In this document: piece by piece, positions 20,128 through 52,406 of the stretch
Position numbering within the stretch: position 1 is the first letter of the stretch
How the letters are laid out: the number at the start of each line of letters is the position of its first letter
DNA from: a virus
Taxonomy: Duplodnaviria; Caudoviricetes
Virus record (IMG/VR): IMGVR_UViG_3300009155_000035
Length of the DNA stretch: 64,000 nt
Direction: 5' to 3' (one strand)
Translations under genes and position numbers: made by a program
The notes under the pieces: generated by a model
What the model was told of the DNA's origin: nothing
What the model saw: the letters and a program-made list of their open reading frames with translations, nothing else
Databases searched by the model: none

Positions 20128-20940
20128 ATGAGAACGATCATCATATCTGGATCAAGTATAACCGAGGATAGTCCTTGGCCAACTTGGGCCACCTGGTCTA
20201 CTAAAATTTTTGATTGGCGCGATGTCGTCAATGTAAGTGTGCGTGGACTAGGAAACGAGGTAATAATATTGAAAGCATTACAGGCCGCCGAACAATCTCC
20301 AGGTAAAAAGTTTATTGTTGTACAACTCACATCGGTGGATAAGTGGGATTGGTATGTACAAAATTCTGATCGTGTGGCAGAGTTAGACAAAGAAAAACAT
20401 CCAATTGTTAGATTGAATTCTGGCGATGCGGCTGGATACTGGTCAACAGGGTCACACTTTCCAAAGTGGAAAGAGCATTACCGCAGCGAATATTTGAGCA
20501 TTGACCACCAATGTTTCCATACCCTACAGTTGATTAGTTGGTTCCAGTTAGTGTGTAAACAACGTGGATGGGATTACCATATTTTGTTTGACAGCCCAAT
20601 ATTTGCAGTCACTGAATCACAGTTAAACACTGGCATGCTTGATAAAAGCCAATGCGAGAGCTTGGCCTTGCTTGATAGTTCATTGAGTAAGCTTGCTCAA
20701 AGCACTGTTGATACTACAGATATGTACTTGCCCGGGCTTATTGGCTACTGCTGTTTGAATAACTTGCCTTGGTTCCACACCAAATACAAAGGACATCCGG
20801 GTAGTCTAGCACATTTAGAATTTACAATTAATCAAGTAGTACCAGTGATAGAAAAATACTTCAAAGTAATAGTGCCACCGGAACAGTTACGTACCGAAGC
20901 TGTCAAAATGCAATTGTTAGTCAATGAGCTACCTTACTAA
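20128..20940 (+). CDS. SGNH hydrolase-like hypothetical protein
   Basis: ISGSSITE, NVSVRGLGN, VVQLT..D, C-terminal KGHP. Confidence 0.55.
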   Translation: MRTIIISGSSITEDSPWPTWATWSTKIFDWRDVVNVSVRGLGNEVIILKALQAAEQSPGKKFIVVQLTSVDKWDWYVQNSDRVAELDKEKHPIVRLNSGDAAGYWSTGSHFPKWKEHYRSEYLSIDHQCFHTLQLISWFQLVCKQRGWDYHILFDSPIFAVTESQLNTGMLDKSQCESLALLDSSLSKLAQSTVDTTDMYLPGLIGYCCLNNLPWFHTKYKGHPGSLAHLEFTINQVVPVIEKYFKVIVPPEQLRTEAVKMQLLVNELPY

Positions 20941-21823
20941 AATCAACGACACACAGTACTGCCTATCAGATCATGCAGATGGATTTGATTCAAGCCTACG
21001 AAACGTATATCTGGATTCAATTACAGCACCGGCAACTGTTCAGACAGAATATATTCTAGATCAACGTGTCAAGGACAACTATCCTCATTTGACTTTTTCA
21101 ATCGACTACAAGATGAAAAAACAAATACTTGGAACACTCGGTGATTACAACATTCATCCAGATCTAGCATTTACTAATTTTTTGTGTAGCTTTAACAACA
21201 GCTATCATGTCAGCAGAGCACTATTAACAGGATTACTAAATTGTTACGGATGGTACAAGACAGATTATGTTAGTAAAAATTTTACAACCAGTGCCGCTAG
21301 TATAGATGGGCATGTGGCTGACTATGTTGGCAACAAATCAGGCTTTTACTGTAAGTTTTTTACAACTAGCGAGGAATTTCATAATACAACAAATCAGTTT
21401 GGTGAAGTTATTAAGTTTGCGCATGGAAAAAATATTCACAACATAGAACACAAATTAACCAACAGCTTTGTTCATCTAGTTAGTGAAACAAATAGCACAA
21501 GTTACTATCCTTTTGTGACTGAAAAATTTTTGTACAGTGTGGTGACCCGAGGATTGTTTGTGGCATACGCACAACCAAATTGGCATAAACATATTGAACA
21601 ATACTTTGGATTTAAACTTTACACAAAATTGTTTGATTACCAATTTGACAGTGTTACAAATCCAATAGATAGACTGTTGGAACTAGTTGCAATGTTATCA
21701 AAATTCAGTCACTTGTCTACTAGTGATTGGCATGACCTATACCAACTTGAATCTAATACCATAGAGTACAACATAGATAACTATCGCAGTAGAAGATATT
21801 TCAAAGGATTAGAAAATGTATAA
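20924..21823 (+). CDS. GT-B-like protein (resembles GT10 fucosyltransferase motif)
   Basis: HLVSET...PFVTEKF..V...LFVAY, FDY.FD pattern resembles the FENS..Y(I/V)TEK motif. Confidence 0.45.
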   Translation: MSYLTKINDTQYCLSDHADGFDSSLRNVYLDSITAPATVQTEYILDQRVKDNYPHLTFSIDYKMKKQILGTLGDYNIHPDLAFTNFLCSFNNSYHVSRALLTGLLNCYGWYKTDYVSKNFTTSAASIDGHVADYVGNKSGFYCKFFTTSEEFHNTTNQFGEVIKFAHGKNIHNIEHKLTNSFVHLVSETNSTSYYPFVTEKFLYSVVTRGLFVAYAQPNWHKHIEQYFGFKLYTKLFDYQFDSVTNPIDRLLELVAMLSKFSHLSTSDWHDLYQLESNTIEYNIDNYRSRRYFKGLENV

Positions 21824-22940
21824 CGTATATCAGCACTGGGATCCACTCAAAGTTTGTGCAGTTGGTCGTAGCTACCCACCAGAATTTTATTCTTGGATCA
21901 CAGTACCCCATGTGCGAGAATTGTTTGAACGTATTGCAACTGAAACTGAAGAAGATTATCAAGCAATTATTAACAAGCTACAAGAATTTGGAGTTGAGAT
22001 TGTTAGACCCAATCTACCTAAAAATACTATCATAGACGGCAAACATGTTGTACCACCCATGTGCCCGCGTGATTTTATGATTATGATTGATAATCAATTT
22101 TGCTCCACTGTTCTGACTTGGGATGACTTTTATCAACAGGTAAGAGACCCAAGTTGGCCAGAACACGTGAACGATATAAGTGAATTGGAGATCTGGCAGC
22201 AACAAGAATGTAACAATCTACATAATTGGCAAAATGTCTATGATTCATGGATATATACCTGGAAACCAATAGTTGACAAAGTGCAGAGTCAAGGTAACGC
22301 TATTAAACATTTGTCAAAGTACAAGCACGTAAATGGTGCATGTGTAAGTCGTATAGGTCGAGACTTATACTTTGGTACTGAAAATTACAGTGACGACCCT
22401 AGTTATTATCAAAACATTGCTGACCAGGAATTCCCACATAAGCGAAACCACATTGTGAACACAGGTGGGCATTCTGATGGTACTTACTGTCCAGTCTGTC
22501 CAGGACTAATTATAAGTTTAGAAGATGTTCCTACTTATGCAAAAACATTCCCAGGATGGGAAGTGGTGTACTTGCCAGGGCAGAGTTGGGACAAAGTTCA
22601 ATCATTTTTAGCATTGAAATATAAAAATCGAGGCAAGTGGTGGATTCCTGGGTTTGAGACTGATCAATCAGTAATTGATGTTGTTGAAAATTGGCTGGGT
22701 CATTGGACTGGGTATGTTGAAGAAACAGTGTTTGATGTAAACATGTTAATCATAGACCCCAAAAATGTCATGGTATTTAACTACAACGAACAAGTGTTTA
22801 CAGCACTGGAACGATATGGAATCACTCCGCATATTGTACCTTTTAGGCACAGATATTTTTGGGATGGTGGTATTCACTGTGTTACCCTTGACCTGCATCG
22901 AGAAGGTGTTGAAAACAATTATTTTCCAGAACGTAAATGA
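21816..22940 (+). CDS. Amidinotransferase (glycine/inosamine-phosphate amidinotransferase family) with inserted module
   Basis: WDPLKVCAVG, PRD, GGHSDG, FDVN, HRYFWDGGIHCVT (catalytic Cys). Confidence 0.85.
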   Translation: MYNVYQHWDPLKVCAVGRSYPPEFYSWITVPHVRELFERIATETEEDYQAIINKLQEFGVEIVRPNLPKNTIIDGKHVVPPMCPRDFMIMIDNQFCSTVLTWDDFYQQVRDPSWPEHVNDISELEIWQQQECNNLHNWQNVYDSWIYTWKPIVDKVQSQGNAIKHLSKYKHVNGACVSRIGRDLYFGTENYSDDPSYYQNIADQEFPHKRNHIVNTGGHSDGTYCPVCPGLIISLEDVPTYAKTFPGWEVVYLPGQSWDKVQSFLALKYKNRGKWWIPGFETDQSVIDVVENWLGHWTGYVEETVFDVNMLIIDPKNVMVFNYNEQVFTALERYGITPHIVPFRHRYFWDGGIHCVTLDLHREGVENNYFPERK

Positions 22941-23728
22941 TTGACTTTAGTTCTACTAATCCAGTAGTAGTTTCTTACCCTGCATTTTCGGGCGGCAAAT
23001 TTATAGTAAATTGTTTGTCCTTGAGTCGACATTCTTGCCTTATGGATAATCGATCTGCTGTGCATGTGTTGAAAAATCCCGGTGATTATGAATTTAGACT
23101 ACAACAAGTGATGGCTACTTTACCTCTAAAAGAGGATTTACTAAACTGGCAACGATATGAGTTTGATGAAGTAAAGTTATACGGGAAACATTTTGAAACA
23201 CTACCAGTTCCAGAACAGCTAGCACCAATTGTAGAACAACTAAGCAAATCAAATCTAAAGTTTTATACAATTGATCATAACGGTCCTCCAAACATCAATA
23301 ATACTCTATCAATTTGGCCTAATGCCACAGTAGTTCGGCTCATAAATTGTAGACATTTTCAAAATATTTCTATACAATTAAAGTCAACCCGACACGATGC
23401 AACACAACTTTGTGGTAACTATTGTGAGGAAAAATATAATCAATTGTGCGGACCGAGTTGGCCTAGTTGGGAAGAGTTTGACCAAGTGGGACACGATGTT
23501 CGAAGAATACCTAATGTTGATGATACTGTGATAAGTGAGATAAATCAATACTATCCCTGGAACACAGTTTCAAACAACGTTGTACAATTTGATATGGACG
23601 CTTGTATTTTTGATGAAACAAAATTTCTTGAATCAATGCAACAACTGTATCAAACACTGGGACTCGATGACTTCAATCGAGAACTAGTTTTAAAATTTTA
23701 TCAGGCATACATAAACCTACATTATTAA
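22937..23728 (+). CDS. Sulfotransferase-fold-like hypothetical protein with GPSWP module
   Basis: YPAFSGGKF N-terminal loop; C-terminal F.....FD...F...M..LY..LGL resembles the sulfotransferase tail. Confidence 0.4.
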   Translation: MIDFSSTNPVVVSYPAFSGGKFIVNCLSLSRHSCLMDNRSAVHVLKNPGDYEFRLQQVMATLPLKEDLLNWQRYEFDEVKLYGKHFETLPVPEQLAPIVEQLSKSNLKFYTIDHNGPPNINNTLSIWPNATVVRLINCRHFQNISIQLKSTRHDATQLCGNYCEEKYNQLCGPSWPSWEEFDQVGHDVRRIPNVDDTVISEINQYYPWNTVSNNVVQFDMDACIFDETKFLESMQQLYQTLGLDDFNRELVLKFYQAYINLHY

Positions 23729-23737: not shown

Positions 23738-24793
23738 ATGGCAAAACCATTTGACATTAGCAAATTTCGCAAGGAAATTACCAAGAGCATTGACGGGCTC
23801 AGTATTGGTTTTAACGATCCCACAGACTGGATCTCAACAGGCAACTATGCCTTGAATTATTTGATCTCGGGCGATTTTAACAAGGGCATCCCTTTAGGTA
23901 AAGTCACTGTGTTTGCTGGCGACTCTGGCGCAGGCAAGTCGTACATCTGCTCAGGTAACATTGTCAAACACGCACAAGAGCAAGGCATCTTTGTGGTGTT
24001 GATCGACAGTGAAAACGCACTTGACGAAGACTGGCTCAAAGCACTTGGCGTTGACACAGGCCCGGACAAACTACTTAAATTGAGCATGGCCATGATTGAT
24101 GATGTAGCTAAAACTATTTCAACATTCATGAGTGACTACAAATCTTTGCCCGACGGAGAACGCCCCAAAGTTCTTTTTGTTATTGACTCACTCGGCATGC
24201 TGTTGACACCTACTGATATAAACCAGTTTGACAGCGGTGATCTAAAAGGCGACTTGGGTCGCAAGCCCAAAGCTCTAACTGCCTTGGTTCGTAATTGCGT
24301 CAACATGTTTGGCAGCTACAACGTTGGTCTGGTGTGTACCAATCACACCTACGCAAGCCAAGACATGTTTGACCCAGACGACAAGATCTCGGGCGGCCAA
24401 GGTTTTATCTATGCCAGCAGTATTGTGGTTGCTATGAAGAAGATGAAGCTCAAAGAGGACGAAGATGGCAACAAGGTATCTGAAGTAAATGGTATTCGTG
24501 CAGGCTGTAAAGTTATGAAAACACGATATGCCAAGCCGTTTGAAGGCGTTCAAGTCAAGATTCCTTACACAACAGGTATGAGTCCTTATTCGGGTCTTGT
24601 GGACTTGATTGAAAAGAAAAACTTGCTCAAGCGTGAAGGTAACAGTTTGGTGTTTACCACAAGCGATGGCGAAGTCATCAAGAAGTTCCGCAAAGCGTGG
24701 GAAAAAAATGATGAAGGTTGTCTTGACAAGGTCATGATAGACTTTAAAAATCAAAAGGAAGAGGTAAGTATCTCTGAGGAGGATGCTGAATAA
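23738..24793 (+). CDS. uvsX: RecA-like recombinase UvsX
   Basis: STGNYALNY, AGDSGAGKS Walker A, DSENALD, VIDSLG, NHTY, SGG.GF.YASS. Confidence 0.95.
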   Translation: MAKPFDISKFRKEITKSIDGLSIGFNDPTDWISTGNYALNYLISGDFNKGIPLGKVTVFAGDSGAGKSYICSGNIVKHAQEQGIFVVLIDSENALDEDWLKALGVDTGPDKLLKLSMAMIDDVAKTISTFMSDYKSLPDGERPKVLFVIDSLGMLLTPTDINQFDSGDLKGDLGRKPKALTALVRNCVNMFGSYNVGLVCTNHTYASQDMFDPDDKISGGQGFIYASSIVVAMKKMKLKEDEDGNKVSEVNGIRAGCKVMKTRYAKPFEGVQVKIPYTTGMSPYSGLVDLIEKKNLLKREGNSLVFTTSDGEVIKKFRKAWEKNDEGCLDKVMIDFKNQKEEVSISEEDAE

Positions 24794-25059
24794 TGAGTGA
24801 AGAATTAGCAAGTGTAATTTGGAGCGAACTTAAACGCTACATCAACACAGTCGATCGTGTAGAAGCCGCCGAAAATTTAATTAGTATATTGATTGACAAT
24901 GACTGCAACCCTGACGACATCAAGGATGCCTTCAAGGGAGATGCCGAGTTTAAACGTGCCATGGCAAGTTACCTTGACACTGGCCAGGATGGGCAGGAAG
25001 AGGAAGAAGAGGAAGAAGAGGACTTTACTGACTTTGAAACCGATGATTGGGAAGAGTAA
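24793..25059 (+). CDS. Small acidic hypothetical protein
   Basis: 88 aa with poly-Glu tail, between uvsX and uvsY with overlapping junctions. Confidence 0.6.
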   Translation: MSEELASVIWSELKRYINTVDRVEAAENLISILIDNDCNPDDIKDAFKGDAEFKRAMASYLDTGQDGQEEEEEEEEDFTDFETDDWEE

Positions 25060-25511
25060 TGTGGTATAGTCGTGTAGTTGCTGACCTTGGGGCTATCCCA
25101 GACTTTATCGCATACTACGAAAAAGAACTTGACGAAGCCAAAAAAGAATGTCGCATTGGTGGCTTAGTTGAGCGTAACATCAAAGACCTTCCGGGTATAA
25201 CCGAGCATCGTTTCAATCAACTGCAAGAGATTGAAGCAGTTCTTAATTTTCTTAATATCCAGTTACGCAAAATCCGCAAACGCCATTTCCAAAAATATCT
25301 TGAAGCGTATGCACGAGCCTTGACAAGTCGTGACGCTGAAAAGTACGTTGATGGTGAGGATGAGGTTATCGATTTTGAAACTATTATCAATGAAGTGGCT
25401 CTATTGCGTAACAAATGGCTAGGCATCATGAAAGGTCTTGACACTAAGCAATGGCAAATGGGACACATTGTTAGACTGCGCACAGCAGGCATGGAAGATA
25501 TCACTGTATGA
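25059..25511 (+). CDS. uvsY: Recombination mediator UvsY-like
   Basis: HFQKYLE.Y.RAL.SRDAEKYVDGEDEV, K.LD.KQWQMGHIVRLR.AGMED; downstream of uvsX. Confidence 0.75.
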   Translation: MWYSRVVADLGAIPDFIAYYEKELDEAKKECRIGGLVERNIKDLPGITEHRFNQLQEIEAVLNFLNIQLRKIRKRHFQKYLEAYARALTSRDAEKYVDGEDEVIDFETIINEVALLRNKWLGIMKGLDTKQWQMGHIVRLRTAGMEDITV

Positions 25512-26266
25512 TGCCAAGATTTTTAACTCCTGCTGATAGTCACAAGCACAGTTTAGAAACATTAAATCAATTGCTTGAGTACGATGATTTTATGTTGACT
25601 ATTGAAAGCATGCTTGATTTGGGATGCGGCCCCGGCCTTGACTTAGAATGGTGGGCGAATCTCACCACTAGAGACGAAGTTCCGCAACCGTTGAATATTA
25701 AATGCCTGGGTGTGGACATGCGCCCAGCATTGAGTCTTGCGCAAAAATATCGAAATGTGCAATACATGGTACAAGATTTTGAAGATGAACTCAAAGTTAA
25801 CCAGCAATACGATTTAATTTGGTGCCACGATGCATTCCAATACTCGATTAATCCATTAAAAACATTAAGCAATTGGAACAAAGTGCTAACCAATGACGGA
25901 ATGTTGATGCTGGTGCTACCACAAACAACCAACATAGAGTACAACAAGTTAGCATACGATCAAGCTGACGGATGTTATTTCAACTGGACCTTGGTTAGTT
26001 TAATACATGCATTGGCGGTAAATGGATTTGATTGTCGTGGCGGATACTTTCATAAAGATGCAACAGATCCCTGGATCAAAGCAATTGTGTATAAAAGTGA
26101 GCATGGCCCTATGGATCCTAAAACCACACGCTGGTATGATTTAGTTGATAAAAATTTATTGCCAGAATCAGCTGTGGACAGCGTCAACAAATACGGCTAC
26201 CTGCGCCAACAAGACTTGGTTCTACGTTGGATAGACAAATCCATACACACCTACGCTAATCATTAA
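25508..26266 (+). CDS. Class I SAM-dependent methyltransferase
   Basis: MLDLGCGPG motif I, GVD, YDLIWCHDAFQY, VLTNDGML. Confidence 0.85.
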   Translation: MMPRFLTPADSHKHSLETLNQLLEYDDFMLTIESMLDLGCGPGLDLEWWANLTTRDEVPQPLNIKCLGVDMRPALSLAQKYRNVQYMVQDFEDELKVNQQYDLIWCHDAFQYSINPLKTLSNWNKVLTNDGMLMLVLPQTTNIEYNKLAYDQADGCYFNWTLVSLIHALAVNGFDCRGGYFHKDATDPWIKAIVYKSEHGPMDPKTTRWYDLVDKNLLPESAVDSVNKYGYLRQQDLVLRWIDKSIHTYANH

Positions 26267-27083: not shown

Positions 27084-27104
27084 AGTGTTATGTTTAAATA
27101 TGTG

Positions 27105-28578: not shown

Positions 28579-28601
28579 GTTAATATTTACTAAGTATTGC
28601 T

Positions 28602-32459: not shown

Positions 32460-32500
32460 AATGATATTTATATGCTAATTTAACGGTAAATATCAAAGTC

Positions 32501-42151: not shown

Positions 42152-42153
42152 TT

Positions 42154-42793: not shown

Positions 42794-42795
42794 AC

Positions 42796-44723: not shown

Positions 44724-45285
44724 CATTGATTTGCCTGACAGGGATGTTTTATTACGTTTAATAAAGCATATACCAGCAAGGTTGGAACTTGGAACATCAG
44801 TACGCAAGCATAACTCGGGTGTGTACATCACTGATATCCCACAAGACCCAGTCAATGGGTGTGCGGCATTGGATTATGAATCTGCCGAACAACGTGGTTA
44901 TTTTAAAATTGACTTGCTGAACATGAGTGTGTACAGCTTGGTCAAAGATCCAGAACACTACAGGACAATGCTTGATGCAGAGCCACCTTGGTCTCGATCA
45001 TGGACTGATAAGGCCTGGGCTTCTCAACTGGTACATGTGGGCAATTATACTGACTTGTTAGCAGAAATGAAACCTGATTCTATACCACGCATGGCAGCTT
45101 TTATTTCTATAATTAGACCAGGCAAGGCCCACTTACAGCATAAGTCTTGGCAAGAAGTTTTTGCTACAGTATGGGATGGTGACAGCAGTAAGGGTTTTAC
45201 ATTTAAAAAATCACATGCTTTGAGTTATGCTCACTTGGTTGCATTGCACATGAATTTAATCAACTCTACGGACCAAAGTAATTGA
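44707..45285 (+). CDS. Minimal DnaE (Pol III alpha, family C) catalytic fragment
   Basis: ADVDID (two catalytic Asp), KHNSGVY, GYFKIDLL (third Asp), IIRPG, FKKSHALSYA; only 192 aa. Confidence 0.8.
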   Translation: MSADVDIDLPDRDVLLRLIKHIPARLELGTSVRKHNSGVYITDIPQDPVNGCAALDYESAEQRGYFKIDLLNMSVYSLVKDPEHYRTMLDAEPPWSRSWTDKAWASQLVHVGNYTDLLAEMKPDSIPRMAAFISIIRPGKAHLQHKSWQEVFATVWDGDSSKGFTFKKSHALSYAHLVALHMNLINSTDQSN

Positions 45286-45653: not shown

Positions 45654-46439
45654 ATGTATTCGACCACAGCCTATTTATATCAGCAAATCCAACCGGTGAT
45701 TTTGGTAGACATCACGGGAGCCTATTTTGATCGGAGATGGCAACCAGTGTACGCAAAAAACTTAACACTTAATCTGGGTGTAGACAATGTAATATTGTTC
45801 CAGTTTCAGAATCAGGATCAGAAACCTGTAAATATTACAGGTGCAACCTTCACGTTTCGCATTATCAGCCAAAATGGTCAAGACCTGCTATTCTCCAAGG
45901 AACTAGTAAGTTTAAGCAATCAACTGGGTCGAGCCAAGGTAACTATCACTGCCGAAGAATCAATGCATTTCCAGGAGCAGCCAGCAAACTGGAGTATTGA
46001 AATAAGCTCGGGTGTACTGAACCAAGCAGTATACACTGATGATAAATGCAGTGCTCGCGGCGTAATTGACATTGTCAACTCGGTGTTCCCGGCGTTTGTT
46101 GCAAGCCGGATTTTGACGATTCCAAGTCAAGCACCTGACAGTTCAATTTACTATTCCAGCACAGTGACCACTGACGGGTCTCCTTTGACAACCTTCCAGT
46201 TAGATACTGCTAACTACACAGGTACTATTGCAGTACAAGGCGCAACTGATGCAACAGCAAATACCGTCGAGTGGTACAACATTGATTTTCAGGATCTAGC
46301 AACTGGTAACACAGTTAGTGAGTTAACAGTCACTAGTTCAACCTCAAGACGTGGTATTAATGTTCAAGGATATCATCCTTATCTAAGATTAGAATTTGGC
46401 ATCAGTAATGGAAATGTAGATCTAATTAGTTACAGATGA
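45654..46439 (+). CDS. Late structural protein, BppU-N-like Ig domain
   Basis: GVDN.ILFQF.NQDQKPVNITG.TFTFRI...G.A.VTI; TAAATA at 45633-45638. Confidence 0.5.
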   Translation: MYSTTAYLYQQIQPVILVDITGAYFDRRWQPVYAKNLTLNLGVDNVILFQFQNQDQKPVNITGATFTFRIISQNGQDLLFSKELVSLSNQLGRAKVTITAEESMHFQEQPANWSIEISSGVLNQAVYTDDKCSARGVIDIVNSVFPAFVASRILTIPSQAPDSSIYYSSTVTTDGSPLTTFQLDTANYTGTIAVQGATDATANTVEWYNIDFQDLATGNTVSELTVTSSTSRRGINVQGYHPYLRLEFGISNGNVDLISYR

Positions 46440-47173
46440 AGTTTAAAAAAATTGTAGGTTTTGGGGATAGCTGGGTTTGGGGCGACGAGTTACTGGACCC
46501 AGTTTTGCTTTCTAAAGACAAAAATGCACATCCAAGTTGGATGCAAAATACTCCTTACAGAGAAAGCAATTGCTTTTTGGGATTGCTAGGCAAACATTAC
46601 AACGTCCCAGCTGAAAACTTTGGAATCCCCGGTGGAAGTTTACAAAGTACCATTTGGACTTTTCTTTGGTGGCTGCATCACGAACCCAATCCATCAGAGT
46701 GCCTGGTACTAACCGGCTTAACTGAAGGTAGTAGAATGAGTTTTTTCAATCCCAACCATCAACGCATGAACAACGACCCACCGTGGAACAAATTTGTACA
46801 CAGTGCCTGGGTACATGCCGGGGTTGAAGACGGGCCTGTTACTCGAGACTGGTCCGATATGATCAAACGTTACATGGTATTAAGTGAAAGCGATCCACTG
46901 AGCTTGTTAAATTACCAACAAGCATTGTATACATTTGATGGCATTGCTGCCAGACGAAATATACCCATGCTAATTTGGGATATAAGTCCCCCACAAGAAG
47001 AATTATCAGTACCAACAAAAATTTGGACAGGCTTTAACTTTGTACATTGGCTAAGACGCCATCCAAATGAACTAGAGTTAACATTTCCGGGCGGCCACCC
47101 GAATGAAAAAGGGCACTTAATACTCCGAGATATGTTGCAAGATGAGATTGATCGTGTTATACTATCACAGTGA
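46436..47173 (+). CDS. SGNH hydrolase-like protein
   Basis: VGFGDSWVWG, NFGIPGGS, C-terminal GGHPNEKGH. Confidence 0.7.
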   Translation: MKFKKIVGFGDSWVWGDELLDPVLLSKDKNAHPSWMQNTPYRESNCFLGLLGKHYNVPAENFGIPGGSLQSTIWTFLWWLHHEPNPSECLVLTGLTEGSRMSFFNPNHQRMNNDPPWNKFVHSAWVHAGVEDGPVTRDWSDMIKRYMVLSESDPLSLLNYQQALYTFDGIAARRNIPMLIWDISPPQEELSVPTKIWTGFNFVHWLRRHPNELELTFPGGHPNEKGHLILRDMLQDEIDRVILSQ

Positions 47174-48150
47174 TCAACGTATTCGATTATCTGCCAGGCA
47201 AACGCAAACAAACACCATCAGGATGGGTCAGCTTCAATGCGGTTTGTTGCACTCATAATGGCAACAGCTTAGACCGACGCCAGCGAGGTGGATTCAAAGC
47301 AACCGAACAAGGCTGGAGCTACCACTGCTTTAATTGTGGGTATACTGCTAGTTTTATTCTTGGAAGGCAGCTAACATTCAAAGCCCGTAAGCTATTGACC
47401 TGGCTAAACGTGCCAGATGCAGAGATTGAACATGTTAACTTAGAAAGTCTAAAGCATCGCAACATACACGGCATCATAGACGACAGGCAACAAATGTTTA
47501 ATACTCTTCAAGCCATTGAGTTTGAAGAACGAGATCTACCGCCCTTTGCAGAGTTGTTGACCGATGAAAATGCGGGGTACACAGAATATGTGAGATCCAG
47601 GTGCGTGCCAGAAGACTTTCCTGTGATGATACAAGAGCGCAACGACGGTGTTCATTGGGTGCGTCCGCACGTGGTAATTCCGTTTACACACAATGACAAA
47701 ATTGTGGGATGGACTTGTAGATTTTTAGACAACAAGCAACCCAAGTTTATCAGTGACAGCCAGCCAGGTTATGTATTTGGCACAGACTTGCAACACAGCG
47801 ATTGGCAGTATGTGATTGTTACTGAAGGAATTTTTGATGCACTCTCTATAGGCGGTCTAGCGTTAATGCACAATACTATAAGCGATGCTCAGGCAAGATT
47901 AATACGCAGTCTAGGAAAAGAAATTGTTGTAGTACCAGATCAAGACAAACCGGGTATGAAGTTGGTTGACCGCGCAGTAGAGCTTAACTGGGCAGTGAGT
48001 ATACCCAATTGGCCCGAGGACGTCAAAGATGTCAACGATGCAGTGATTAGATATGGCAAGTTGGCCACTTTGATGATGATTATGCAGGCAAAAGAAACAT
48101 CCAAGATCAAAATAGAGATGCAAAAGAAAAAGGTACTAAAGCGTGTCTAA
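47170..48150 (+). CDS. DNA primase (gp61/DnaG-like)
   Basis: Zn finger CC..HCFNC; TOPRIM VTEGIFDA, VVPDQD, KDVND. Confidence 0.9.
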   Translation: MINVFDYLPGKRKQTPSGWVSFNAVCCTHNGNSLDRRQRGGFKATEQGWSYHCFNCGYTASFILGRQLTFKARKLLTWLNVPDAEIEHVNLESLKHRNIHGIIDDRQQMFNTLQAIEFEERDLPPFAELLTDENAGYTEYVRSRCVPEDFPVMIQERNDGVHWVRPHVVIPFTHNDKIVGWTCRFLDNKQPKFISDSQPGYVFGTDLQHSDWQYVIVTEGIFDALSIGGLALMHNTISDAQARLIRSLGKEIVVVPDQDKPGMKLVDRAVELNWAVSIPNWPEDVKDVNDAVIRYGKLATLMMIMQAKETSKIKIEMQKKKVLKRV

Positions 48151-49243
48151 TTCATGGTGCCCAGAAATATTTCGCAGTATCTATGTTGATAGATTTAATG
48201 ATGATCAAATACGATTTGCACCCTGCTGTCAAGCACTGCCAACAATAGAACCTTTGTCTACATTTGATTTTGCCACCAATCAATATCTAACTGGTCTAAG
48301 AGAACAAATAGCACAAGGCAAAAAACCCACTGAGTGTGATTCATGTTGGAAAGTAGAACGTGTAGGGCAAAAAAGTCGTAGACAAAGTGCTATTGAATTC
48401 TTTTCAATTGAGCCTAATATAGACGTGGTGTTAGAAAGTATTGATCACAGCGCCACATGGGCTTGCAATTCTGCTTGTGTAATGTGCAAACCACAGCATA
48501 GCAGTATGTGGGCCAGTGAGTTAAACTACAGTGCAGACGAATTGTACAAAGCTGGACGACGTTTTCAAAAAGCCAATAATTTTTTAGAGTACCTTGATAT
48601 TACAAACATTAAGAAAATACATTTCAATGGCGGAGAGCCGTTGTTAAACAACGATCAAGTTGAGTTGTTGGAAAAACTAAAGACCAACAACAAGTTGTCA
48701 TCTACATTTGTGAGCTATAATACAAACGGCACAGTTTATCCCTCACAAAAGATTTTGAATTTATGGGCAGAGACTCGTTTGGTAAAGTTGTTTTTTAGTT
48801 TAGATGCAATTGGCCCTGCATTTAACTACATACGTTGGCCAGGAGATTGGAACCAAGTGCGTGACAATATTTTGAGACTGCGTGATACTGCACCATCAAA
48901 TGTTATGTTTGGGATCAACGCCACAGTAGGTGCTCATAATTTATTAGAGATTGGTGCAATGTATCAGTGGTTTGACGCAAATTTAAAAACCAACCGAGAA
49001 GGTGACCCATCGGATTTTTGTTGGCAATTTGCCGATAACTTTCCAGTGTCTGCGGTGCCCGAGCAAGTTAAAAATAAAGCCATCGAACAATTGTCCAATG
49101 TTGATGTATTGACTCCATTGGCAGACCATGTTAAATATAACCCACCCAGCAGTTATCCGTGGACACAAACGTTAGATACAATTGATCAACGACGCGGAAC
49201 CGACTGGCGTACTGTGTTAGAAATTGGAAAATATGACTGTTAA
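48143..49243 (+). CDS. Radical SAM protein with N-terminal SPASM/twitch-like cluster
   Basis: CPE, PCC, CDSCW; ACNSACVMC, FNGGEP, YNTNG, SLDA, YIRWP..W. Confidence 0.85.
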   Translation: MSNSWCPEIFRSIYVDRFNDDQIRFAPCCQALPTIEPLSTFDFATNQYLTGLREQIAQGKKPTECDSCWKVERVGQKSRRQSAIEFFSIEPNIDVVLESIDHSATWACNSACVMCKPQHSSMWASELNYSADELYKAGRRFQKANNFLEYLDITNIKKIHFNGGEPLLNNDQVELLEKLKTNNKLSSTFVSYNTNGTVYPSQKILNLWAETRLVKLFFSLDAIGPAFNYIRWPGDWNQVRDNILRLRDTAPSNVMFGINATVGAHNLLEIGAMYQWFDANLKTNREGDPSDFCWQFADNFPVSAVPEQVKNKAIEQLSNVDVLTPLADHVKYNPPSSYPWTQTLDTIDQRRGTDWRTVLEIGKYDC

Positions 49244-49958
49244 CTATCAATTTTACGAAACCACAACATGCAAGGCCGCCTGGGACAACTACATGGGCCT
49301 AGATACTAGTATGCGTCCATTGAATGGCTTGTGTTTGATTTACTACGTGATCAAACATTTTCAACCACAGAGCATTTTAGAAATTGGATTTAGAGAAGGC
49401 ATGACATTTGCCGCAATGCTAGAAGCATCCACGCCCGGTTGTCACTTAACTGGTATTGATATCAAACTCACAAGAGAACACTTTGACAAATACTTTAACA
49501 AGATACAACTTACACACGATAGGCGTATTGATTTGTTTGAAATACCCAGTCAAAACTTTATTCCAGATCGCAAATATGATTTTGTCAATGTTGATGGATG
49601 TCACGAGTACCCACAGGTATTGACTGACCTAGCGACAGTGAGTCGTGTTGTGGAAAACAATGCAATCATCATGCTTGATGATTATGCCACACCCGGAGTG
49701 GACCAAGCCATTGATGATTTTATGAAGCTAGACACAGGATTTGTGCCGTTTTTAAAAGATCGTCAAGCAGTGTTTTTTCATCACGAGAGTCACGATGCTT
49801 CGGAGTTTCTTGACAATGTATTAGACAAAACATTCTTTGACTTAGCATCACTTTATAATGTACAATACAAAGGACACAACACTAAAGAAGTAAACTTTTG
49901 GCCAGCCATAAAAGATAACAAAATATTTTGGCTCATGTGTAACCGACTAAAAATATAA
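49233..49958 (+). CDS. Class I SAM-dependent methyltransferase (Methyltransf_24-like)
   Basis: ILEIGF, GID, DFVNVDGCHEY, IIMLDDY; start moved to 49233. Confidence 0.8.
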   Translation: MTVNYQFYETTTCKAAWDNYMGLDTSMRPLNGLCLIYYVIKHFQPQSILEIGFREGMTFAAMLEASTPGCHLTGIDIKLTREHFDKYFNKIQLTHDRRIDLFEIPSQNFIPDRKYDFVNVDGCHEYPQVLTDLATVSRVVENNAIIMLDDYATPGVDQAIDDFMKLDTGFVPFLKDRQAVFFHHESHDASEFLDNVLDKTFFDLASLYNVQYKGHNTKEVNFWPAIKDNKIFWLMCNRLKI

Positions 49959-49959
49959 T

Positions 49960-51396
49960 ATGCTTAAAGAATACACAGTTGATATACAAAGATTGTTTTT
50001 GGAGATGATGTTAGAGGACGCACAAAGTTATGTGCGTGTACAGAACATCTACAACCCACAGAACTTTGACAGGAGTTTACGTGCTGCCGCCGAGTTTATC
50101 AAAGAGCATACTGACAAGTTCAAGACCATGCCCGAGCGTACACAGATTGCAGCCGCAACCAGTGTAAAGCTTCAGCCGGTGCCAGATCTCAACGAAGGTC
50201 ACTTTGAATGGTTTATGCAAGAGTTTGAAAGTTTTACCAAGCGCCAAGAACTTGAAAGGGCTATTCTTAAAGCGGCAGACTTGCTGGAAAAAGGTGAGTT
50301 TGACCCCGTTGAGAAACTGATCAAAGATGCTGTTCAAATATCCCTGACCAAGGACCTGGGCACAGATTTTTGGCTAGATCCGGAATCCATGTTCAGTCGA
50401 TACTTTGATGCAGGTGGACAAGTAAGCACAGGATGGCCACAGCTGGACAAGTTGCTGTATGGTGGATTCAGTCGAGGTGAACTCAACATCTTTGCAGGTG
50501 GATCGGGATCAGGCAAGTCCTTGGTCATGATGAACATTGCGTTGAATTGGGTACAACTGGGACTGCATGGTGTTTATATCACGCTTGAACTTAGTGAAGA
50601 GCTCACAGGTCTGCGCACAGCGGCCATGTTGACTAACATGAGCACCAAGGACATTCGCAAAGACAAAGAAACTGCATCGTTAAAAATCAAATTGGTTGGT
50701 AAAAAAGCAGGTAGTTATCAAGTCAAGGCATTGCCAGCACAAAGCAATATCAATGATATTCGCGCATTCTTGAAAGAGTATCAAATCAAAACAGGACGCA
50801 AAGTAGACTTCATGATGATTGACTACTTGGACTTGTTGATGCCGGTTAGTGCCAAAGTCAGTCCCAACGACTTGTTTGTTAAAGACAAGTACGTGAGTGA
50901 GGAACTGCGTAACTTGGCCAAAGAGCTGGGTATCTTGATGGTAACAGCTTCGCAGTTGAACCGAAGTGCTGTGGAAGAAATTGAATTTGATCACTCGCAC
51001 ATTTCGGGCGGTATCTCCAAGATCAACACAGCAGACAACGTGTTCGGCATCTTTACCAGTCGTGCCATGAAAGAGCGTGGCAAGTATCAGATCCAGTGTA
51101 TGAAGAGTCGTAGTTCTACAGGTGTGGGACAAAAGATTGATTTAGACTACAACATGGAAACCATGCGTATTACAGACAGTGGTGACGCAGAAGGCGAGGG
51201 TTTCAGTAAAAAGCCTTCAATGAATATCATGGAAAGTATCAAGGCAAAGGCCAGTGTTAGTGCGAGTACCAGTGAAACAAGTTCAACATCCTGGGAAAGA
51301 GCCACAGGAACGCCAGCGTGGGAACAACCTCCCAAGGTAGAAGCTGAAGTTCAAAGTGCAAAACTAAAACAGTTGCTTGGACAAATTAAAAAATAA
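49960..51396 (+). CDS. Replicative helicase (T4 gp41/DnaB-like)
   Basis: STGW..LD, GGSGSGKS, TLELSE, IDYLDL, TASQLNR, ISKINTAD, KSR. Confidence 0.95.
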   Translation: MLKEYTVDIQRLFLEMMLEDAQSYVRVQNIYNPQNFDRSLRAAAEFIKEHTDKFKTMPERTQIAAATSVKLQPVPDLNEGHFEWFMQEFESFTKRQELERAILKAADLLEKGEFDPVEKLIKDAVQISLTKDLGTDFWLDPESMFSRYFDAGGQVSTGWPQLDKLLYGGFSRGELNIFAGGSGSGKSLVMMNIALNWVQLGLHGVYITLELSEELTGLRTAAMLTNMSTKDIRKDKETASLKIKLVGKKAGSYQVKALPAQSNINDIRAFLKEYQIKTGRKVDFMMIDYLDLLMPVSAKVSPNDLFVKDKYVSEELRNLAKELGILMVTASQLNRSAVEEIEFDHSHISGGISKINTADNVFGIFTSRAMKERGKYQIQCMKSRSSTGVGQKIDLDYNMETMRITDSGDAEGEGFSKKPSMNIMESIKAKASVSASTSETSSTSWERATGTPAWEQPPKVEAEVQSAKLKQLLGQIKK

Positions 51397-52406
51397 TGTA
51401 CGCATATCAAGATATACGTCATGTGCATTTAGAAATTTCTAGTCGGTGCAATGCAGAGTGCCCGCTGTGTCCTAGAAATTTTTATGGATATCCCTACAAT
51501 GATGGGTACATTGAGCATGATATGACATTGGGTGAAGCACAACGTATATTCTCGGTTGATTTTATCAAACAGTTGGGCGCAGTACAAATCAATGGTAACT
51601 TTGGCGACATCGTCATGAATCATGATGCTATCTCCATTGTTGAATATTTGCGTAGTCATAACAATGTCATGGACATCACTGTTACCACAAACGCTGGCGC
51701 CAGAGATAAAAAATTCTGGCGAGAACTGGCAAGATTACGATGCCGTGTTATTTTTTGTATTGAGGGGTTTGAAGACACTCATCATCTCTACAGACAAAAT
51801 ACACGCTATGAAGTCGTTATAAAAAACGCCAAGACATTTATTGACGCGGGCGGTACAGCTACCTGGAAAATGATAGACTTTGCGCATAACAAGCATCAGC
51901 AAGAACCAGCTCGCCAACTATCTAAAGACATGGGGTTTAAGAACTTTCTTTTGGTAGATTACGGACGAGATACTGCCCCAGTATTTGACCACAGTGGCAA
52001 TTTAAAACACGTCATTGGCAACCCCACAGAGACAAATTTTAAAAAAATGTTTTTTACGCGAACTGTCAACAGAGTATTTCTTAAAGATATCATTGATGAT
52101 AGAACCCCTGCTCCAATCAGTTGTGCAGTCAAGGGATCAAGTTCAGTGTACGTGTCCAGTACCGGTGATGCGTACCCATGTTGTTTCTTGGGATTTAATC
52201 CCAAAACATATGGGCATGGTAATTATCATGCCGCTGCCAACAAACAAATATCTGAATTAATTTACGAAAACAATGCTATTGAACATGGGCTAGAACATGC
52301 TATTAAATGGTTTGATAATATTGTAAAGGCCTGGGAAATACCCGACTTCCTCAGTGGCCGCCCAATCATTTGTCATGACTATTGTTCCAAAAACGGTAAA
52401 TATTGA
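51396..52406 (+). CDS. Radical SAM protein with C-terminal SPASM/twitch-like Cys
   Basis: SRCNAECPLC, NGNFGD, TTN, C-terminal C...YPCC...C...C. Confidence 0.85.
   Translation: MYAYQDIRHVHLEISSRCNAECPLCPRNFYGYPYNDGYIEHDMTLGEAQRIFSVDFIKQLGAVQINGNFGDIVMNHDAISIVEYLRSHNNVMDITVTTNAGARDKKFWRELARLRCRVIFCIEGFEDTHHLYRQNTRYEVVIKNAKTFIDAGGTATWKMIDFAHNKHQQEPARQLSKDMGFKNFLLVDYGRDTAPVFDHSGNLKHVIGNPTETNFKKMFFTRTVNRVFLKDIIDDRTPAPISCAVKGSSSVYVSSTGDAYPCCFLGFNPKTYGHGNYHAAANKQISELIYENNAIEHGLEHAIKWFDNIVKAWEIPDFLSGRPIICHDYCSKNGKY

What the first reader, a model, noticed from the sequence alone, without database searches (positions are those of the whole stretch)
20128..52406. Dispersed modification pathway interleaved one-by-one between core replication genes
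Seen: accessory enzymes sit singly or in short runs between SSB, uvsX/Y, uvsW, the DnaE fragment, primase and helicase, nearly all joined by overlapping start/stop codons. They comprise SGNH-like x3 (581, 20128, 46436), radical SAM x3 (38432, 48143, 51396), methyltransferases x3 (25508, 41018, 49233), sulfotransferase-like x2, an amidinotransferase, a 2OG-Fe hydroxylase and a GT10-like protein. Established: these families tailor sugars, peptides or bases by amidination, methylation, hydroxylation, acylation and radical chemistry. Inference: a phage-encoded tailoring system, probably making unusual glycans for the virion or host surface, or hypermodified DNA. Its genes insert as translationally coupled passengers in essential operons.
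Basis: partly seen in the sequence, partly recalled or inferred. Interest (0 to 1): 0.75.

Follow-up and report, generated by a model that had tools for sequence, protein, structure and literature searches.

The report
Sugar-tailoring genes between phage replication genes
An uncultured freshwater giant phage keeps about 25 sugar-building and sugar-decorating enzyme genes in fixed gaps between its DNA-replication genes, and its relatives fill the same gaps differently; this is a known style of phage genome plasticity that here probably diversifies a glycan whose target is still unknown.

Summary
The window is an uncultured freshwater jumbo phage. Its terminase-SSB-UvsX-UvsY-UvsW-primase-helicase-RNR backbone is syntenic with Pseudomonas phage PA5oct.

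**Arrangement.** It is real: accessory enzyme genes fill 21.3 of 32.3 kb, in runs of 1-4 genes plus one 12-gene island. In more than 100 IMG/VR relatives the same junctions are hot (empty in some, up to 8 kb in others), while other junctions never vary.

**Family calls.**
- Confirmed: three radical SAMs (two are 'twitch-first' NF033640), two methyltransferases, a 2OG hydroxylase, an amidinotransferase C-terminus, one SGNH fold and a new GT-A glycosyltransferase.
- Weak or unconfirmed: the sulfotransferase-like, GT10-like and third methyltransferase labels.

**New evidence.** Twitch-first radical SAM paralogues and the 43734 family sit in slot-specific lineages. Cellular homologues are fused to a methyltransferase and a WbsX glycosyltransferase, and they lie among glycosyltransferase genes.

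**Reading.** This is a flexible glycan-tailoring toolkit, not one fixed pathway. The DNA-hypermodification reading finds no support. Gene overlaps are a genome-wide habit.

**Novelty.** The kind is already described in pelagimyophages and cyanomyophages. The scan had also noted it in other windows of this genome and in a marine jumbo phage.

The parts
18979..20046 (+). SSB (gp32-like), backbone gene; followed by a strong terminator at 20080-20104
   Evidence: phrog_1192 E 3e-71; terminator; 50% identical to the PA5oct homologue
20128..20940 (+). SGNH/GDSL-fold protein (orphan viral family)
   Evidence: AF2 pLDDT 93; top PDB fold hits are all GDSL/SGNH (TesA, Axe2), E 2e-3, prob up to 1.0; invariant G8, S10, G40, G42, N43, H223, H229
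20924..21823 (+). Virus-specific family of unknown function; the GT10-like label is only a lead
   Evidence: No Pfam or PHROG hit. Atlas: nearest Pfam-bearing cluster is GT10 at 0.79 (chance range); the same fold occurs fused to NDP-sugar epimerase/dehydratase and to MTase domains in other viral proteins. Cluster 15, 6 relatives, always in the SSB|UvsX slot
21816..22940 (+). Amidinotransferase-like protein (C-terminal catalytic Cys motif GGIHC)
   Evidence: PDB phmmer: HsvA 1.2e-8, SxtG 3.8e-7, AGAT 6e-7, StrB1 1.4e-6 over residues 302-370 only; motif; phrog_25854
22937..23728 (+). Unknown (weak DUF6625 hit)
   Evidence: Pfam 17.8 bits against cut-off 27
23738..25511 (+). UvsX, an 88-aa conserved protein and UvsY (backbone)
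   Evidence: RecA Pfam; phrog_231 UvsY; 82-93% identical in IMG/VR relatives
25508..26266 (+). Class I SAM methyltransferase
   Evidence: Methyltransf_31/11/12/23/25 above cut-offs
26256..33934 (.). Two-strand glycan island: three paralogous DUF6716-like putative GTs (26256-, 29278-, 30215-), GT25 (27880-), GT2 (28602+), GT8 (31021-), RfaE-II-type nucleotidyltransferase fused to a mannose-6-P-isomerase-type cupin (31698-), phage GT (32501+), and unknowns 27090+ and 33272+
   Evidence: Pfam, NCBIfam, phrog_1962, paralogy. A KpsS assignment was not confirmed
34222..35277 (+). AAA ATPase conserved in the freshwater clade (clamp-loader-like, weak); has its own sigma70-like promoter
   Evidence: phrog_1250 E 1e-85; promoter 34191-34219
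35793..36611 (+). Unknown, no relatives in 160 loci
   Evidence: No Pfam or PHROG hit
36608..37744 (+).
   Evidence: AF2 pLDDT 94.6. VIA Z 10.3 to STIV A197 and 9.8 to PBCV-1 A64R. Foldseek: LH3, ColGalT1, SpsA. AFDB 'Glycosyltransferase 2-like'. BFVD GT-A proteins
37738..38445 (+). 2OG-Fe(II) Asp/Arg-hydroxylase-family oxygenase
   Evidence: PF05118 E 1e-11, 45 bits; HxD motif
38432..39559 (+). Twitch-first radical SAM (NF033640), AAA|UvsW slot lineage
   Evidence: 303 bits against cut-off 170; invariant 4 N-terminal Cys + CxxxCxxC + GGEP; tree
39556..41025 (+). UvsW helicase (backbone)
   Evidence: ResIII/Helicase_C; 48% identical to PA5oct
41018..41605 (+). Unknown; methyltransferase label not confirmed
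   Evidence: Methyltransf_24 18.6 bits against cut-off 26.3
41651..43470 (+). Three conserved backbone genes of unknown function (41651, 42353, 42790) plus a 69-aa ORF
   Evidence: phrog_11279/11758/11058; homologues in PA5oct and Atu_ph07
43734..44723 (+). Virus-specific family (cluster 8); the sulfotransferase/DUF2972-like label is only a lead
   Evidence: Atlas; no PDB profile hit; 11 relatives in 4 slots, each slot monophyletic
44707..45285 (+). Short DnaE-like DNA polymerase piece (backbone)
   Evidence: phrog_11778 'DNA polymerase' E 5e-51
46436..47173 (+). SGNH-motif protein (GFGDS ... GHPNExGH), inserted between 45654 and the primase
   Evidence: Motifs and invariants; no Pfam or PDB support; present in 5 of 57 relatives at this junction
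47170..48150 (+). Primase (Toprim), backbone
   Evidence: Pfam; PA5oct primase homologue
48143..49243 (+). Twitch-first radical SAM (NF033640), primase|helicase slot
   Evidence: 209 bits against cut-off 170; nearest copy is L036 in the same slot (56%), nested in the helicase-flank clade
49233..49958 (+). Methyltransf_24 class I methyltransferase
   Evidence: 50.7 bits against cut-off 26.3; essentially unique to this window among 160 loci
49960..51396 (+). DnaB-like replicative helicase (backbone)
   Evidence: DnaB_C; 46% identical to PA5oct gp260
51396..52406 (+). Radical SAM with C-terminal SPASM-like Cys cluster
   Evidence: Pfam; CxxxCxxC at 18-25 and C243/262/263/326/330; 3 relatives, same slot
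52375..52680 (+). Small conserved protein that closes the helicase-side hot slot; homologue of PA5oct gp259 ('virion structural protein')
   Evidence: tblastn 41%, E 8e-13; annotation

Best explanation
The region is the replication and recombination gene string of a PA5oct-like freshwater jumbo phage. About ten fixed inter-gene junctions in it serve as long-lived slots for accessory enzymes.

The occupants that can be recognised are mostly glycan enzymes:
- glycosyltransferases
- a sugar-phosphate nucleotidyltransferase-cupin
- SAM methyltransferases
- an SGNH acyl-esterase/transferase fold
- a 2OG hydroxylase
- an amidinotransferase
- 'twitch-first' radical SAM enzymes

Together they most likely build and decorate an unusual glycan in the cytoplasm of the infected cell. 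All are predicted to be soluble, and they are co-transcribed with the neighbouring replication genes.

Related phages carry different subsets and alleles in the same slots. The set therefore behaves as a combinatorial tailoring toolkit that makes the glycan differ between strains, not as one obligatory pathway.

Shown here:
- the slot architecture and its variability
- slot-specific paralogue lineages for the twitch-first rSAM and 43734 families
- the family and fold assignments
- the fusion of the radical SAM family to MTase and GT domains in bacteria

Inferred:
- that the dispersed enzymes share one substrate class
- that radical SAM chemistry acts on sugars (oxidation, epimerisation, deoxygenation or C-methylation, by analogy with BtrN, NeoN, AprD4 and DesII)
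- that the product decorates the virion rather than the host envelope
For: 1. **Backbone and insertions.** PA5oct and Atu_ph07 share the gene order. UvsY-UvsW and primase-helicase are adjacent in PA5oct.
2. **Hot and cold junctions in IMG/VR relatives.** The share of empty junctions is 32% at SSB|UvsX (n=56), 57% at 24793|UvsY (n=70), 66% at primase|helicase (n=73) and 9% at helicase|52354 (n=57). Terminase|17206 and four of the five junctions from 52670 to 57554 are always tight; the fifth, 54663|55203, is tight in 92% of loci.
3. **Old resident lineages.** The 90 twitch-first rSAM copies cluster by slot: 8 label changes against a minimum of 6, shuffled mean 45. Cluster 8 is perfectly slot-monophyletic. 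GC3 of accessory genes equals that of core genes (37.2 against 37.9%, p = 0.72).
4. **Glycan link of the rSAM family.**
 - In two Thermoanaerobaculia MAGs and one Eremiobacterota MAG the domain is fused as [twitch-rSAM]-[class I MTase]-[Glyco_tran_WbsX] in proteins of ~1200 aa.
 - A profile of the viral copies scores these fusions at 170-190 bits end to end, against 25 bits for a control rSAM.
 - Among 125 neighbours of 17 cellular copies, GT2, GT4, GT1 and WbsX are the commonest families after further rSAMs.
5. **More glycan enzymes in the window.** 36608 has a GT-A fold, and its best matches are viral GTs, among them the PBCV-1 capsid-glycosylating A64R. The island holds GT25, GT2, GT8 and RfaE-II+cupin.
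6. **Slot genes in relatives.** They include a sugar C-methyltransferase (Methyltransf_14), a formyltransferase, hexapeptide acyltransferases, FkbM, a GNAT and MetK.
7. **Soluble enzymes.** No convincing transmembrane segment was found in any accessory enzyme; the only marginal hydropathy peaks (581, 41018) are no stronger than those in UvsW and the primase. No Wzx, Wzy or ABC exporter was seen.
8. **Operon structure.** Accessory genes lie inside the same terminator- and promoter-bounded units as UvsX/Y, UvsW, the primase and the helicase.
9. **Genes dispersed here are neighbours elsewhere.** In L078 the amidinotransferase sits directly beside a 43734-family gene.
Against: - No product, substrate or expression data exist.
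- Slot contents vary independently, and the window's gene pairs are not conserved in relatives. Shared function is therefore not demonstrated.
- Most slot gene families in relatives have no recognisable domain.
- The fusion partners in bacteria show no direct sequence similarity to the window's own MTases or GTs.
- The Asp/Arg-hydroxylase family and the SPASM/twitch radical SAMs also include protein-modifying enzymes.
- The position inside replication operons would equally suit nucleic-acid modification.
- The rest of this phage's genome could not be searched here.
Confidence: 0.55

Rival explanations
1. The slot genes are an unrelated collection of independently selected accessory genes ('morons': anti-defence, host takeover, metabolism). 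They merely accumulate at recombination-tolerant junctions and share no substrate or product.
For: - Slot architectures are combinatorial, and the window's pairs are not conserved.
- Homing-endonuclease (NUMOD3) genes, MetK, a fatty-acid desaturase and AMP-binding enzymes share the same slots in relatives.
- Most large slot families have no known domain.
- Tight packing is genome-wide.
Against: - The recognisable occupants are strongly biased towards glycan and SAM-dependent tailoring enzymes.
- The rSAM family is fused to MTase+GT in bacteria.
- Genes that are dispersed here are adjacent in some relatives.
Confidence: 0.2
2. The enzymes hypermodify the phage DNA (bases decorated by glycosylation, amidination, methylation or radical chemistry). 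That would explain why they sit in the replication module.
For: - They are located in, and probably co-transcribed with, the replication and recombination genes.
- Known thymidine hypermodification pathways use radical SAM and other tailoring enzymes (PMC5889632).
- An amidinotransferase could act on polyamine-type appendages.
Against: - No ThyA-family pyrimidine hydroxymethylase and no TGT/DpdA was found in five relatives' contigs of 115-300 kb. None was seen among the window ORFs that were scanned.
- Ten or more LPS-type GT-A/GT-B glycosyltransferases plus a heptose/mannose-type nucleotidyltransferase point to an oligosaccharide.
- Cellular homologues of the rSAM sit in O-antigen-type contexts.
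Confidence: 0.07
3. The radical SAM enzymes and the hydroxylase modify proteins or peptides, with RiPP-like crosslinks or hydroxylation. Possible targets are small virion proteins such as the conserved 52375 product. The glycosyltransferases may then glycosylate the hydroxylated residues, as in collagen-type Lys hydroxylation and glycosylation.
For: - After NF033640, the next-best NCBIfam hits of 38432 are peptide maturases (PapB, mycofactocin, anSME).
- 51396 lies directly upstream of a small conserved homologue of a PA5oct virion protein.
- The GT-A protein 36608 resembles the LH3/ColGalT1 GT domains and abuts a 2OG hydroxylase.
Against: - Those similarities are generic to the radical SAM core and the GT-A fold.
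- No precursor-peptide gene travels with the rSAM copies across slots.
- The fusion partners are MTase+WbsX GT, not RiPP recognition elements.
Confidence: 0.1

Closest known systems
Plastic periphery and hypervariable regions of T4-type aquatic myophages (pelagimyophages and cyanomyophages; PMC7029224, which cites Comeau et al. 2007)
   Same: Conserved replication and structural modules are separated by variable regions. [quoted passage not shown] Radical SAM gene cassettes appear as indels between close genomes, and an Asp/Asn beta-hydroxylase is present. A T4-like marine genome with 12 radical SAM genes has also been reported (PMC5332604).
   Different: Here the phage belongs to a PA5oct/Atu_ph07-like jumbo lineage from fresh water. 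The insertions are resolved to single junctions inside replication operons. The twitch-first rSAM and 43734 families form slot-specific lineages. Those papers propose host O-chain modification, and no target is settled here.
Chlorovirus PBCV-1 virus-encoded capsid glycosylation machinery (A64R and partners)
   Same: Soluble, virus-encoded GT-A glycosyltransferases together with methyltransferases would build an atypical glycan in the cytoplasm. PBCV-1 A64R is the second-best structural match of 36608 (Z 9.8).
   Different: PBCV-1 is a eukaryotic giant virus. No sequence-level homology was detected, and no evidence exists here that the capsid is the acceptor. Radical SAM enzymes are not part of the PBCV-1 system, as far as I know (own knowledge).
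Twitch/SPASM radical SAM sugar-tailoring enzymes of aminoglycoside pathways (BtrN, NeoN, AprD4) and DesII
   Same: A radical SAM core plus an auxiliary 4-Cys cluster domain, with glycan or sugar genes in the context (established knowledge of those enzymes).
   Different: The auxiliary domain is N-terminal, not C-terminal. No solved structure matched beyond SkfB at E 0.005. The family is overwhelmingly viral. The chemistry and substrate are untested.
Phage DNA hypermodification pathways (thymidine hypermodifications, PMC5889632; 7-deazaguanines)
   Same: Tailoring enzymes, radical SAMs among them, are encoded near replication and nucleotide-metabolism genes.
   Different: The entry enzymes (ThyA-type hydroxymethylase, DpdA/TGT) were not found in relatives or in the scanned window ORFs. 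The enzyme set is dominated by LPS-type glycosyltransferases.
Pseudomonas phage PA5oct (Arenbergviridae) and Agrobacterium phage Atu_ph07 replication and structural backbone
   Same: The order terminase-SSB-UvsX-UvsY-UvsW-...-DnaE piece-primase-DnaB-small virion protein-...-exonuclease-RNR is shared, at 30-65% amino-acid identity.
   Different: PA5oct has UvsY/UvsW and primase/helicase adjacent, and it has none of the window's accessory enzymes at these junctions. It carries a homing endonuclease and hypothetical genes instead.

Membership tests
Radical SAM superfamily, NCBIfam NF033640 'N_Twi_rSAM' (38432, 48143) | Score above the curated cut-off (170 bits) over the full model | tested here: met
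   303.2 and 209.0 bits over model positions 2-397 and 1-391 of 398
Radical SAM superfamily, NCBIfam NF033640 'N_Twi_rSAM' (38432, 48143) | CxxxCxxC SAM-cluster motif and GGE SAM-binding motif | tested here: met
   C117/C121/C124 and G172-G173-E174-P175 are invariant or nearly so in 90 copies
Radical SAM superfamily, NCBIfam NF033640 'N_Twi_rSAM' (38432, 48143) | Auxiliary-cluster (twitch) domain placed N-terminal to the core, with conserved Cys ligands | tested here: met
   Pfam SPASM match at residues 8-74; C8, C26, C70, C73 invariant. Cluster binding itself is not testable here
SGNH/GDSL hydrolase superfamily (20128) | Flavodoxin-like SGNH fold | tested here: met
   AF2 pLDDT 93; the top Foldseek PDB hits are almost all GDSL/SGNH proteins (TesA TM 0.64 by target, prob 1.0), but the best E is only 2.4e-3
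SGNH/GDSL hydrolase superfamily (20128) | Catalytic blocks: Ser in block I, Gly in block II, Asn in block III, Asp-x-x-His in block V | tested here: inconclusive
   Invariant S10, G40/G42/N43, H223 and H229. No conserved Asp could be assigned, and Pfam models do not match
SGNH/GDSL hydrolase superfamily (46436, 581) | Family profile or fold match | tested here: inconclusive
   Only motifs for 46436 (GFGDS, GHPNExGH). There is no Pfam, PDB phmmer/hmmsearch or hhalign support for it. 581 was scanned against Pfam only, with no hit. No structures were predicted
Amidinotransferase (AGAT/StrB1/HsvA, pentein fold) (21816) | C-terminal catalytic Cys segment | tested here: met
   Residues 302-370 match HsvA, SxtG, AGAT and StrB1 at E 1e-8 to 1e-6; GGIHC is present
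Amidinotransferase (AGAT/StrB1/HsvA, pentein fold) (21816) | Full-length fold with the Asp/His partners of the triad | not tested
   The N-terminal 300 residues gave no PDB or Pfam match; no model was made
GT-A glycosyltransferases (36608) | GT-A Rossmann-like nucleotide-sugar-binding fold | tested here: met
   Residues 1-190: Z 10.3 (STIV A197) and 9.8 (PBCV-1 A64R), with many GT-A enzymes at Z 8-9; Foldseek prob up to 1.0
GT-A glycosyltransferases (36608) | DxD metal- and nucleotide-binding motif | tested here: inconclusive
   D58 at the expected strand end is not conserved in 49 homologues; D65 is nearly invariant
KpsS/KpsC-type capsule Kdo transferases (26256, 29278, 30215) | Match to the Capsule_synth family or to solved KpsC/KpsS-like structures | tested here: inconclusive
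   Only 30215 gave a weak DUF6716 'putative glycosyltransferase' hit (22.8 bits against cut-off 27); 26256 and 29278 gave no Pfam hit. No PDB hit by sequence or profile
Sulfotransferases (43734) | Family profile or fold match and PAPS-binding loop | tested here: inconclusive
   Atlas TM 0.39-0.42 to sulfotransferase clusters; feature score 0.93 to a cluster in which 23% of members carry Sulfotransfer_1; no Pfam or PDB profile hit
Phage DNA hypermodification systems | An entry enzyme: a ThyA-family pyrimidine hydroxymethylase, or DpdA/TGT | tested here: inconclusive
   None in five relatives' contigs (33-81% complete), and none among the window ORFs that were scanned. The rest of this phage's own genome could not be searched
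T4-type 'plastic periphery' (flexible genes between conserved core genes) | Conserved syntenic core, with presence/absence and replacement of genes at the same junctions among relatives | tested here: met
   Junction-length distributions over 7-77 loci per junction, and combinatorial slot architectures

The most novel reading that the evidence does not exclude
The 'twitch-first' radical SAM family is a glycan-editing enzyme class. It is catalogued as NF033640 and has about 8,700 sequence clusters at E <= 1e-30. It is almost entirely viral, reaches 8-12 copies per jumbo-phage genome, and also forms arrays in Bdellovibrio-type predators. In this reading each paralogue, anchored to its own genomic slot, installs a different radical modification (epimerisation, oxidation, deoxygenation or C-methylation) on a virion-displayed glycan. 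Presence/absence of slot genes would then give each phage strain its own surface-sugar 'barcode', under diversifying selection.
Probability: 0.3. Interest if true: 0.7.

Novelty: new member of a known kind. Interest (0 to 1): 0.48.

Why it matters
Large aquatic phages carry many radical SAM, methyltransferase and glycosyltransferase genes, and nobody has shown what they do.

This locus and its more than 100 relatives show three things:
- These genes are long-term residents of defined slots inside essential operons.
- The repertoire differs between close relatives.
- The main radical SAM family is physically fused to a methyltransferase and an O-antigen-type glycosyltransferase in bacteria.

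That turns a vague 'auxiliary gene' observation into a testable prediction: radical SAM chemistry on sugars, giving strain-specific phage-made glycans. It also points enzymologists to a very large uncharacterised enzyme family.

If the glycan coats the virion or remodels the host surface, it bears on host range, superinfection exclusion and phage-phage competition in lakes.

Tried and rejected
- **Nucleotide search.** Megablast of 34 kb against 50,697 phage records found no match.
- **Whole genome.** None is held for this window.
- **T4-type late promoters.** TATAAATA occurs twice in 64 kb, so expression timing could not be inferred.
- **Expression.** No RNA holder was listed for the region or for the rSAM+MTase pair; the only full DNA holder is a freshwater metagenome that may be the source.
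- **PDB by sequence or profile.** Nothing useful for 29278, 46436, 36608, the 43734 family, the 46436 family or the DUF6716-like paralogues.
- **Shared SGNH origin.** hhalign of the 20128 family against the 46436 family gave probability 0.2, so common ancestry is not shown.
- **Pfam on slot families.** Nine of the ten largest slot families in relatives had no hit.
- **Insertion scars.** Primase/helicase junctions in empty and occupied sites show no target duplication or repeat, only a precise insertion within the overlap region.
- **Free hopping of rSAM genes between slots.** Rejected by the tree, which shows slot-specific clades. It is not excluded for the amidinotransferase, whose closest copy (66%) lies in another slot.
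- **Recent horizontal acquisition.** Rejected: GC3 equals that of core genes.
- **Fusion partners.** phmmer of the bacterial fusion's MTase and GT parts against the window proteins found no similarity.
- **Genome search with a diverse alignment.** The first attempt on genome contigs failed for lack of a conserved stretch; a narrower alignment worked.
- **Literature.** Searches for jumbo phage + radical SAM + glycosyltransferase, and for twitch + polysaccharide, found no characterisation of this family.

Full report
**What the window is.** No phage record matches at the nucleotide level. The DnaB-like helicase is 45-50% identical to those of the jumbo phages PA5oct and Atu_ph07. PHROG and Pfam scans identify tail sheath, tail tube, terminase, SSB, UvsX, UvsY, UvsW, a short DnaE-like piece, primase, helicase, a DUF6267 protein and RNR. 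Gene order from terminase to RNR is collinear with PA5oct. The best DNA holder is a freshwater metagenome. The phage therefore belongs to an abundant uncultured clade.

**The observation.** With ATG-corrected starts, the stretch 20128-52406 holds 25 accessory genes. They make up 21.3 of 32.3 kb. They lie between backbone genes in runs of 4, 12, 4, 1, 2, 1, 2 and 1; the run of 2 between 42790 and 44707 counts the small unannotated ORF 43471-43737 with 43734.

Family assignments:
- Three radical SAMs are confirmed. Two of them exceed the cut-off of NCBIfam NF033640, the 'twitch domain-containing radical SAM protein'.
- Methyltransferases 25508 and 49233 are confirmed. 41018 is not.
- The hydroxylase is a PF05118 member.
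- The amidinotransferase call rests on a C-terminal match to HsvA, SxtG, AGAT and StrB1.
- 20128 has an SGNH fold. 46436 has only SGNH-like motifs.
- The sulfotransferase-like (43734) and GT10-like (20924) labels remain leads.
Its best structural matches are viral GTs (STIV A197 and PBCV-1 A64R).
- The block 25508-33934 is a compact 12-gene, two-strand glycan island.

Overlapping junctions are common around accessory genes (18 of 26), but also elsewhere in the window (18 of 40; p = 0.08).

**Are these insertions?** Yes.
- In PA5oct, UvsY is followed directly by UvsW, and the primase by the helicase. The window has 14.0 kb and 1.8 kb there.
- I mapped all window proteins on 160 related loci and measured every backbone junction.
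- Some junctions are invariably tight: terminase|17206 and four of the five junctions from 52670 to 57554. The fifth, 54663|55203, is tight in 92% of loci.
- Others range from empty to several kb. SSB|UvsX is empty in 32% of loci and reaches 7.9 kb. 24793|UvsY is empty in 57%. Primase|helicase is empty, with a 14-nt overlap, in 66%. Helicase|52354 is empty in 9% and reaches 4.5 kb.
- Empty and occupied primase/helicase sites show a precise insertion without repeats.

**What sits in the slots of relatives.** I clustered 574 slot ORFs.
- The twitch-first radical SAM family is by far the largest variable family, with 88 copies in seven different slots.
- The 43734 family occupies four slots and the amidinotransferase three.
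- Slot architectures are combinatorial. The window's local pairs (hydroxylase+rSAM, rSAM+Methyltransf_24) are not conserved.
- Recognisable domains among 106 cluster representatives are mainly methyltransferases and radical SAMs. There are also hexapeptide acyltransferases, AMP-binding enzymes, a sugar C-methyltransferase, a formyltransferase, FkbM, a GNAT, 2OG oxygenases, MetK and NUMOD3 homing endonucleases. Most have no Pfam match.
- Long relatives carry 5-12 matches to NF033640 spread over the genome.

**Residents, not hoppers.**
- A tree of the 90 rSAM copies groups them by slot: 8 label changes against a minimum of 6, with a shuffled mean of 45. Exchange is seen only between the two slots that flank the helicase.
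- The 43734 family is perfectly slot-monophyletic.
- The window's amidinotransferase is an exception. It is closest (66%) to a copy in another slot, where that copy sits directly beside a 43734-family gene.
- Accessory genes have a lower GC than other genes (40.7 against 43.4%) but the same GC3, so they are ameliorated residents.
- Accessory orthologues are mostly 45-56% identical where flanking core genes are 70-87% identical. They either evolve faster or are exchanged across more distant lineages.
- All catalytic Cys and GGE residues are invariant, so the genes are not decaying.

**What the radical SAMs are for.**
- The family is 94-100% viral in the ESM Atlas clusters. It has about 8,700 50%-identity clusters at E <= 1e-30.
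- No paper in the library characterises it.
- Cellular homologues occur mainly in Bdellovibrionales/Bacteriovoracaceae, often as tandem arrays, and in Thermoanaerobaculia and Eremiobacterota.
- In three MAGs from two phyla the domain is the N-terminus of a ~1200-aa protein, followed by a class I methyltransferase and a WbsX-type glycosyltransferase.
- A profile of the viral copies matches these N-termini end to end at 170-190 bits, against 25 bits for the unrelated rSAM 51396.
- Among 125 neighbours of 17 cellular copies, the commonest families after further rSAMs are GT2, GT4, GT1, WbsX and methyltransferases.

This Rosetta-stone and neighbourhood evidence ties the family to glycan assembly and tailoring. 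These are the same three enzyme classes that lie side by side or dispersed in the window.

**Target.**
- No ThyA-type hydroxymethylase or TGT/DpdA is present in five long relatives or among the scanned window ORFs.
- No accessory enzyme has a convincing transmembrane segment; the only marginal hydropathy peaks (581, 41018) are no stronger than those in UvsW and the primase. No exporter is present.
- Terminators and sigma70-like promoters place the accessory genes in the same units as the replication genes.
- This favours a cytoplasmic glycan pathway over DNA hypermodification. It cannot decide between virion decoration and host-envelope remodelling.
- No RNA data were available.

**Comparison with what is known.**
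- Pelagimyophages and cyanomyophages have conserved modules separated by hypervariable regions. [quoted passage not shown] They also have radical SAM cassettes as indels and an Asp/Asn beta-hydroxylase (PMC7029224).
- A T4-like marine genome with 12 radical SAM genes has been reported (PMC5332604).
- The present case is therefore a new member of a known kind, in a different (PA5oct-like, freshwater, jumbo) lineage.
- Earlier notes of this scan (unchecked by me) describe a 25-28-kb sugar-tailoring island with six twitch-first rSAMs next to the tail-fibre genes of this same genome. They also describe a similar island in a marine jumbo phage. These agree with the glycan reading, but they are not independent evidence.

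**Verdict.**
Several family labels are unproven, and the overlap feature is not special.
It is a glycan-tailoring toolkit carried as long-term passengers in replication operons. It is not shown to be one pathway, and it is unlikely to modify DNA.

Noticed in passing
L200:9986-13618, L201:9986-13651, L196:10076-13561: Thermoanaerobaculia and Eremiobacterota MAGs encode ~1200-aa fusion proteins: [twitch-first radical SAM]-[class I methyltransferase]-[WbsX glycosyltransferase].
   Followed up: yes
L173:9992-12528; L167:8483-12462; L186:9902-12626: Bdellovibrionales/Bacteriovoracaceae (predatory bacteria) chromosomes carry tandem arrays of 2-3 twitch-first radical SAM paralogues. Many of the best-scoring metagenomic proteins (about 750-1400 aa) match the radical SAM profile twice or more.
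   Followed up: partly
window 45256-45633 (- strand): The apparent 368-bp gap between the DnaE-like piece and 45654 holds a 125-aa minus-strand ORF. It is conserved in 43 related loci (cluster 2, 124-132 aa), so it is a real antisense-oriented small gene inside a plus-strand operon.
   Followed up: partly
window 52375-52680: The small protein that closes the helicase-side hot slot is homologous to PA5oct gp259, which is annotated 'virion structural protein' (41%, E 8e-13). In relatives it always follows the slot richest in radical SAM genes.
   Followed up: partly
window 36608-37744, residues 200-378: The C-terminal half of the GT-A protein is a confident alpha/beta domain with invariant PGSG and VDIS-like motifs, reminiscent of a SAM/NAD-binding site. 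Its fold was barely tested, because the GT-A domain filled the hit lists.
   Followed up: no
L105, L116, L122, L123, L142, L145, L148 (SSB|UvsX slot): Seven relatives share a conserved four-gene cassette at this junction: unknown (c13), rSAM, a short Rossmann/epimerase-like protein (c11) and a second rSAM. The window has a different four-gene set there.
   Followed up: partly
slots of relatives (alignment A1): One relative carries a complete S-adenosylmethionine synthetase (MetK) in a slot, and two carry NUMOD3 homing endonucleases. This fits heavy SAM use and shows that true mobile elements use the same junctions.
   Followed up: no
L163, L164: The two closest 'bacterial' hits (Terrimicrobiaceae and Legionellales MAG contigs; rSAM 46-51% identical) are probably phage contigs binned into MAGs.
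   Followed up: no
window 25047-25511 to 39556: UvsY and UvsW, adjacent in PA5oct, are 14.0 kb apart here. The AAA ATPase 34222 (phrog_1250) within this stretch is conserved across the freshwater clade but absent at this position in PA5oct.
   Followed up: partly
window 35761-35785 and 20080-20104: Two strong intrinsic-terminator-like hairpins (11 and 10 pairs) bound the accessory runs. The first coincides with the end of a small-RNA candidate that other readers noted.
   Followed up: no
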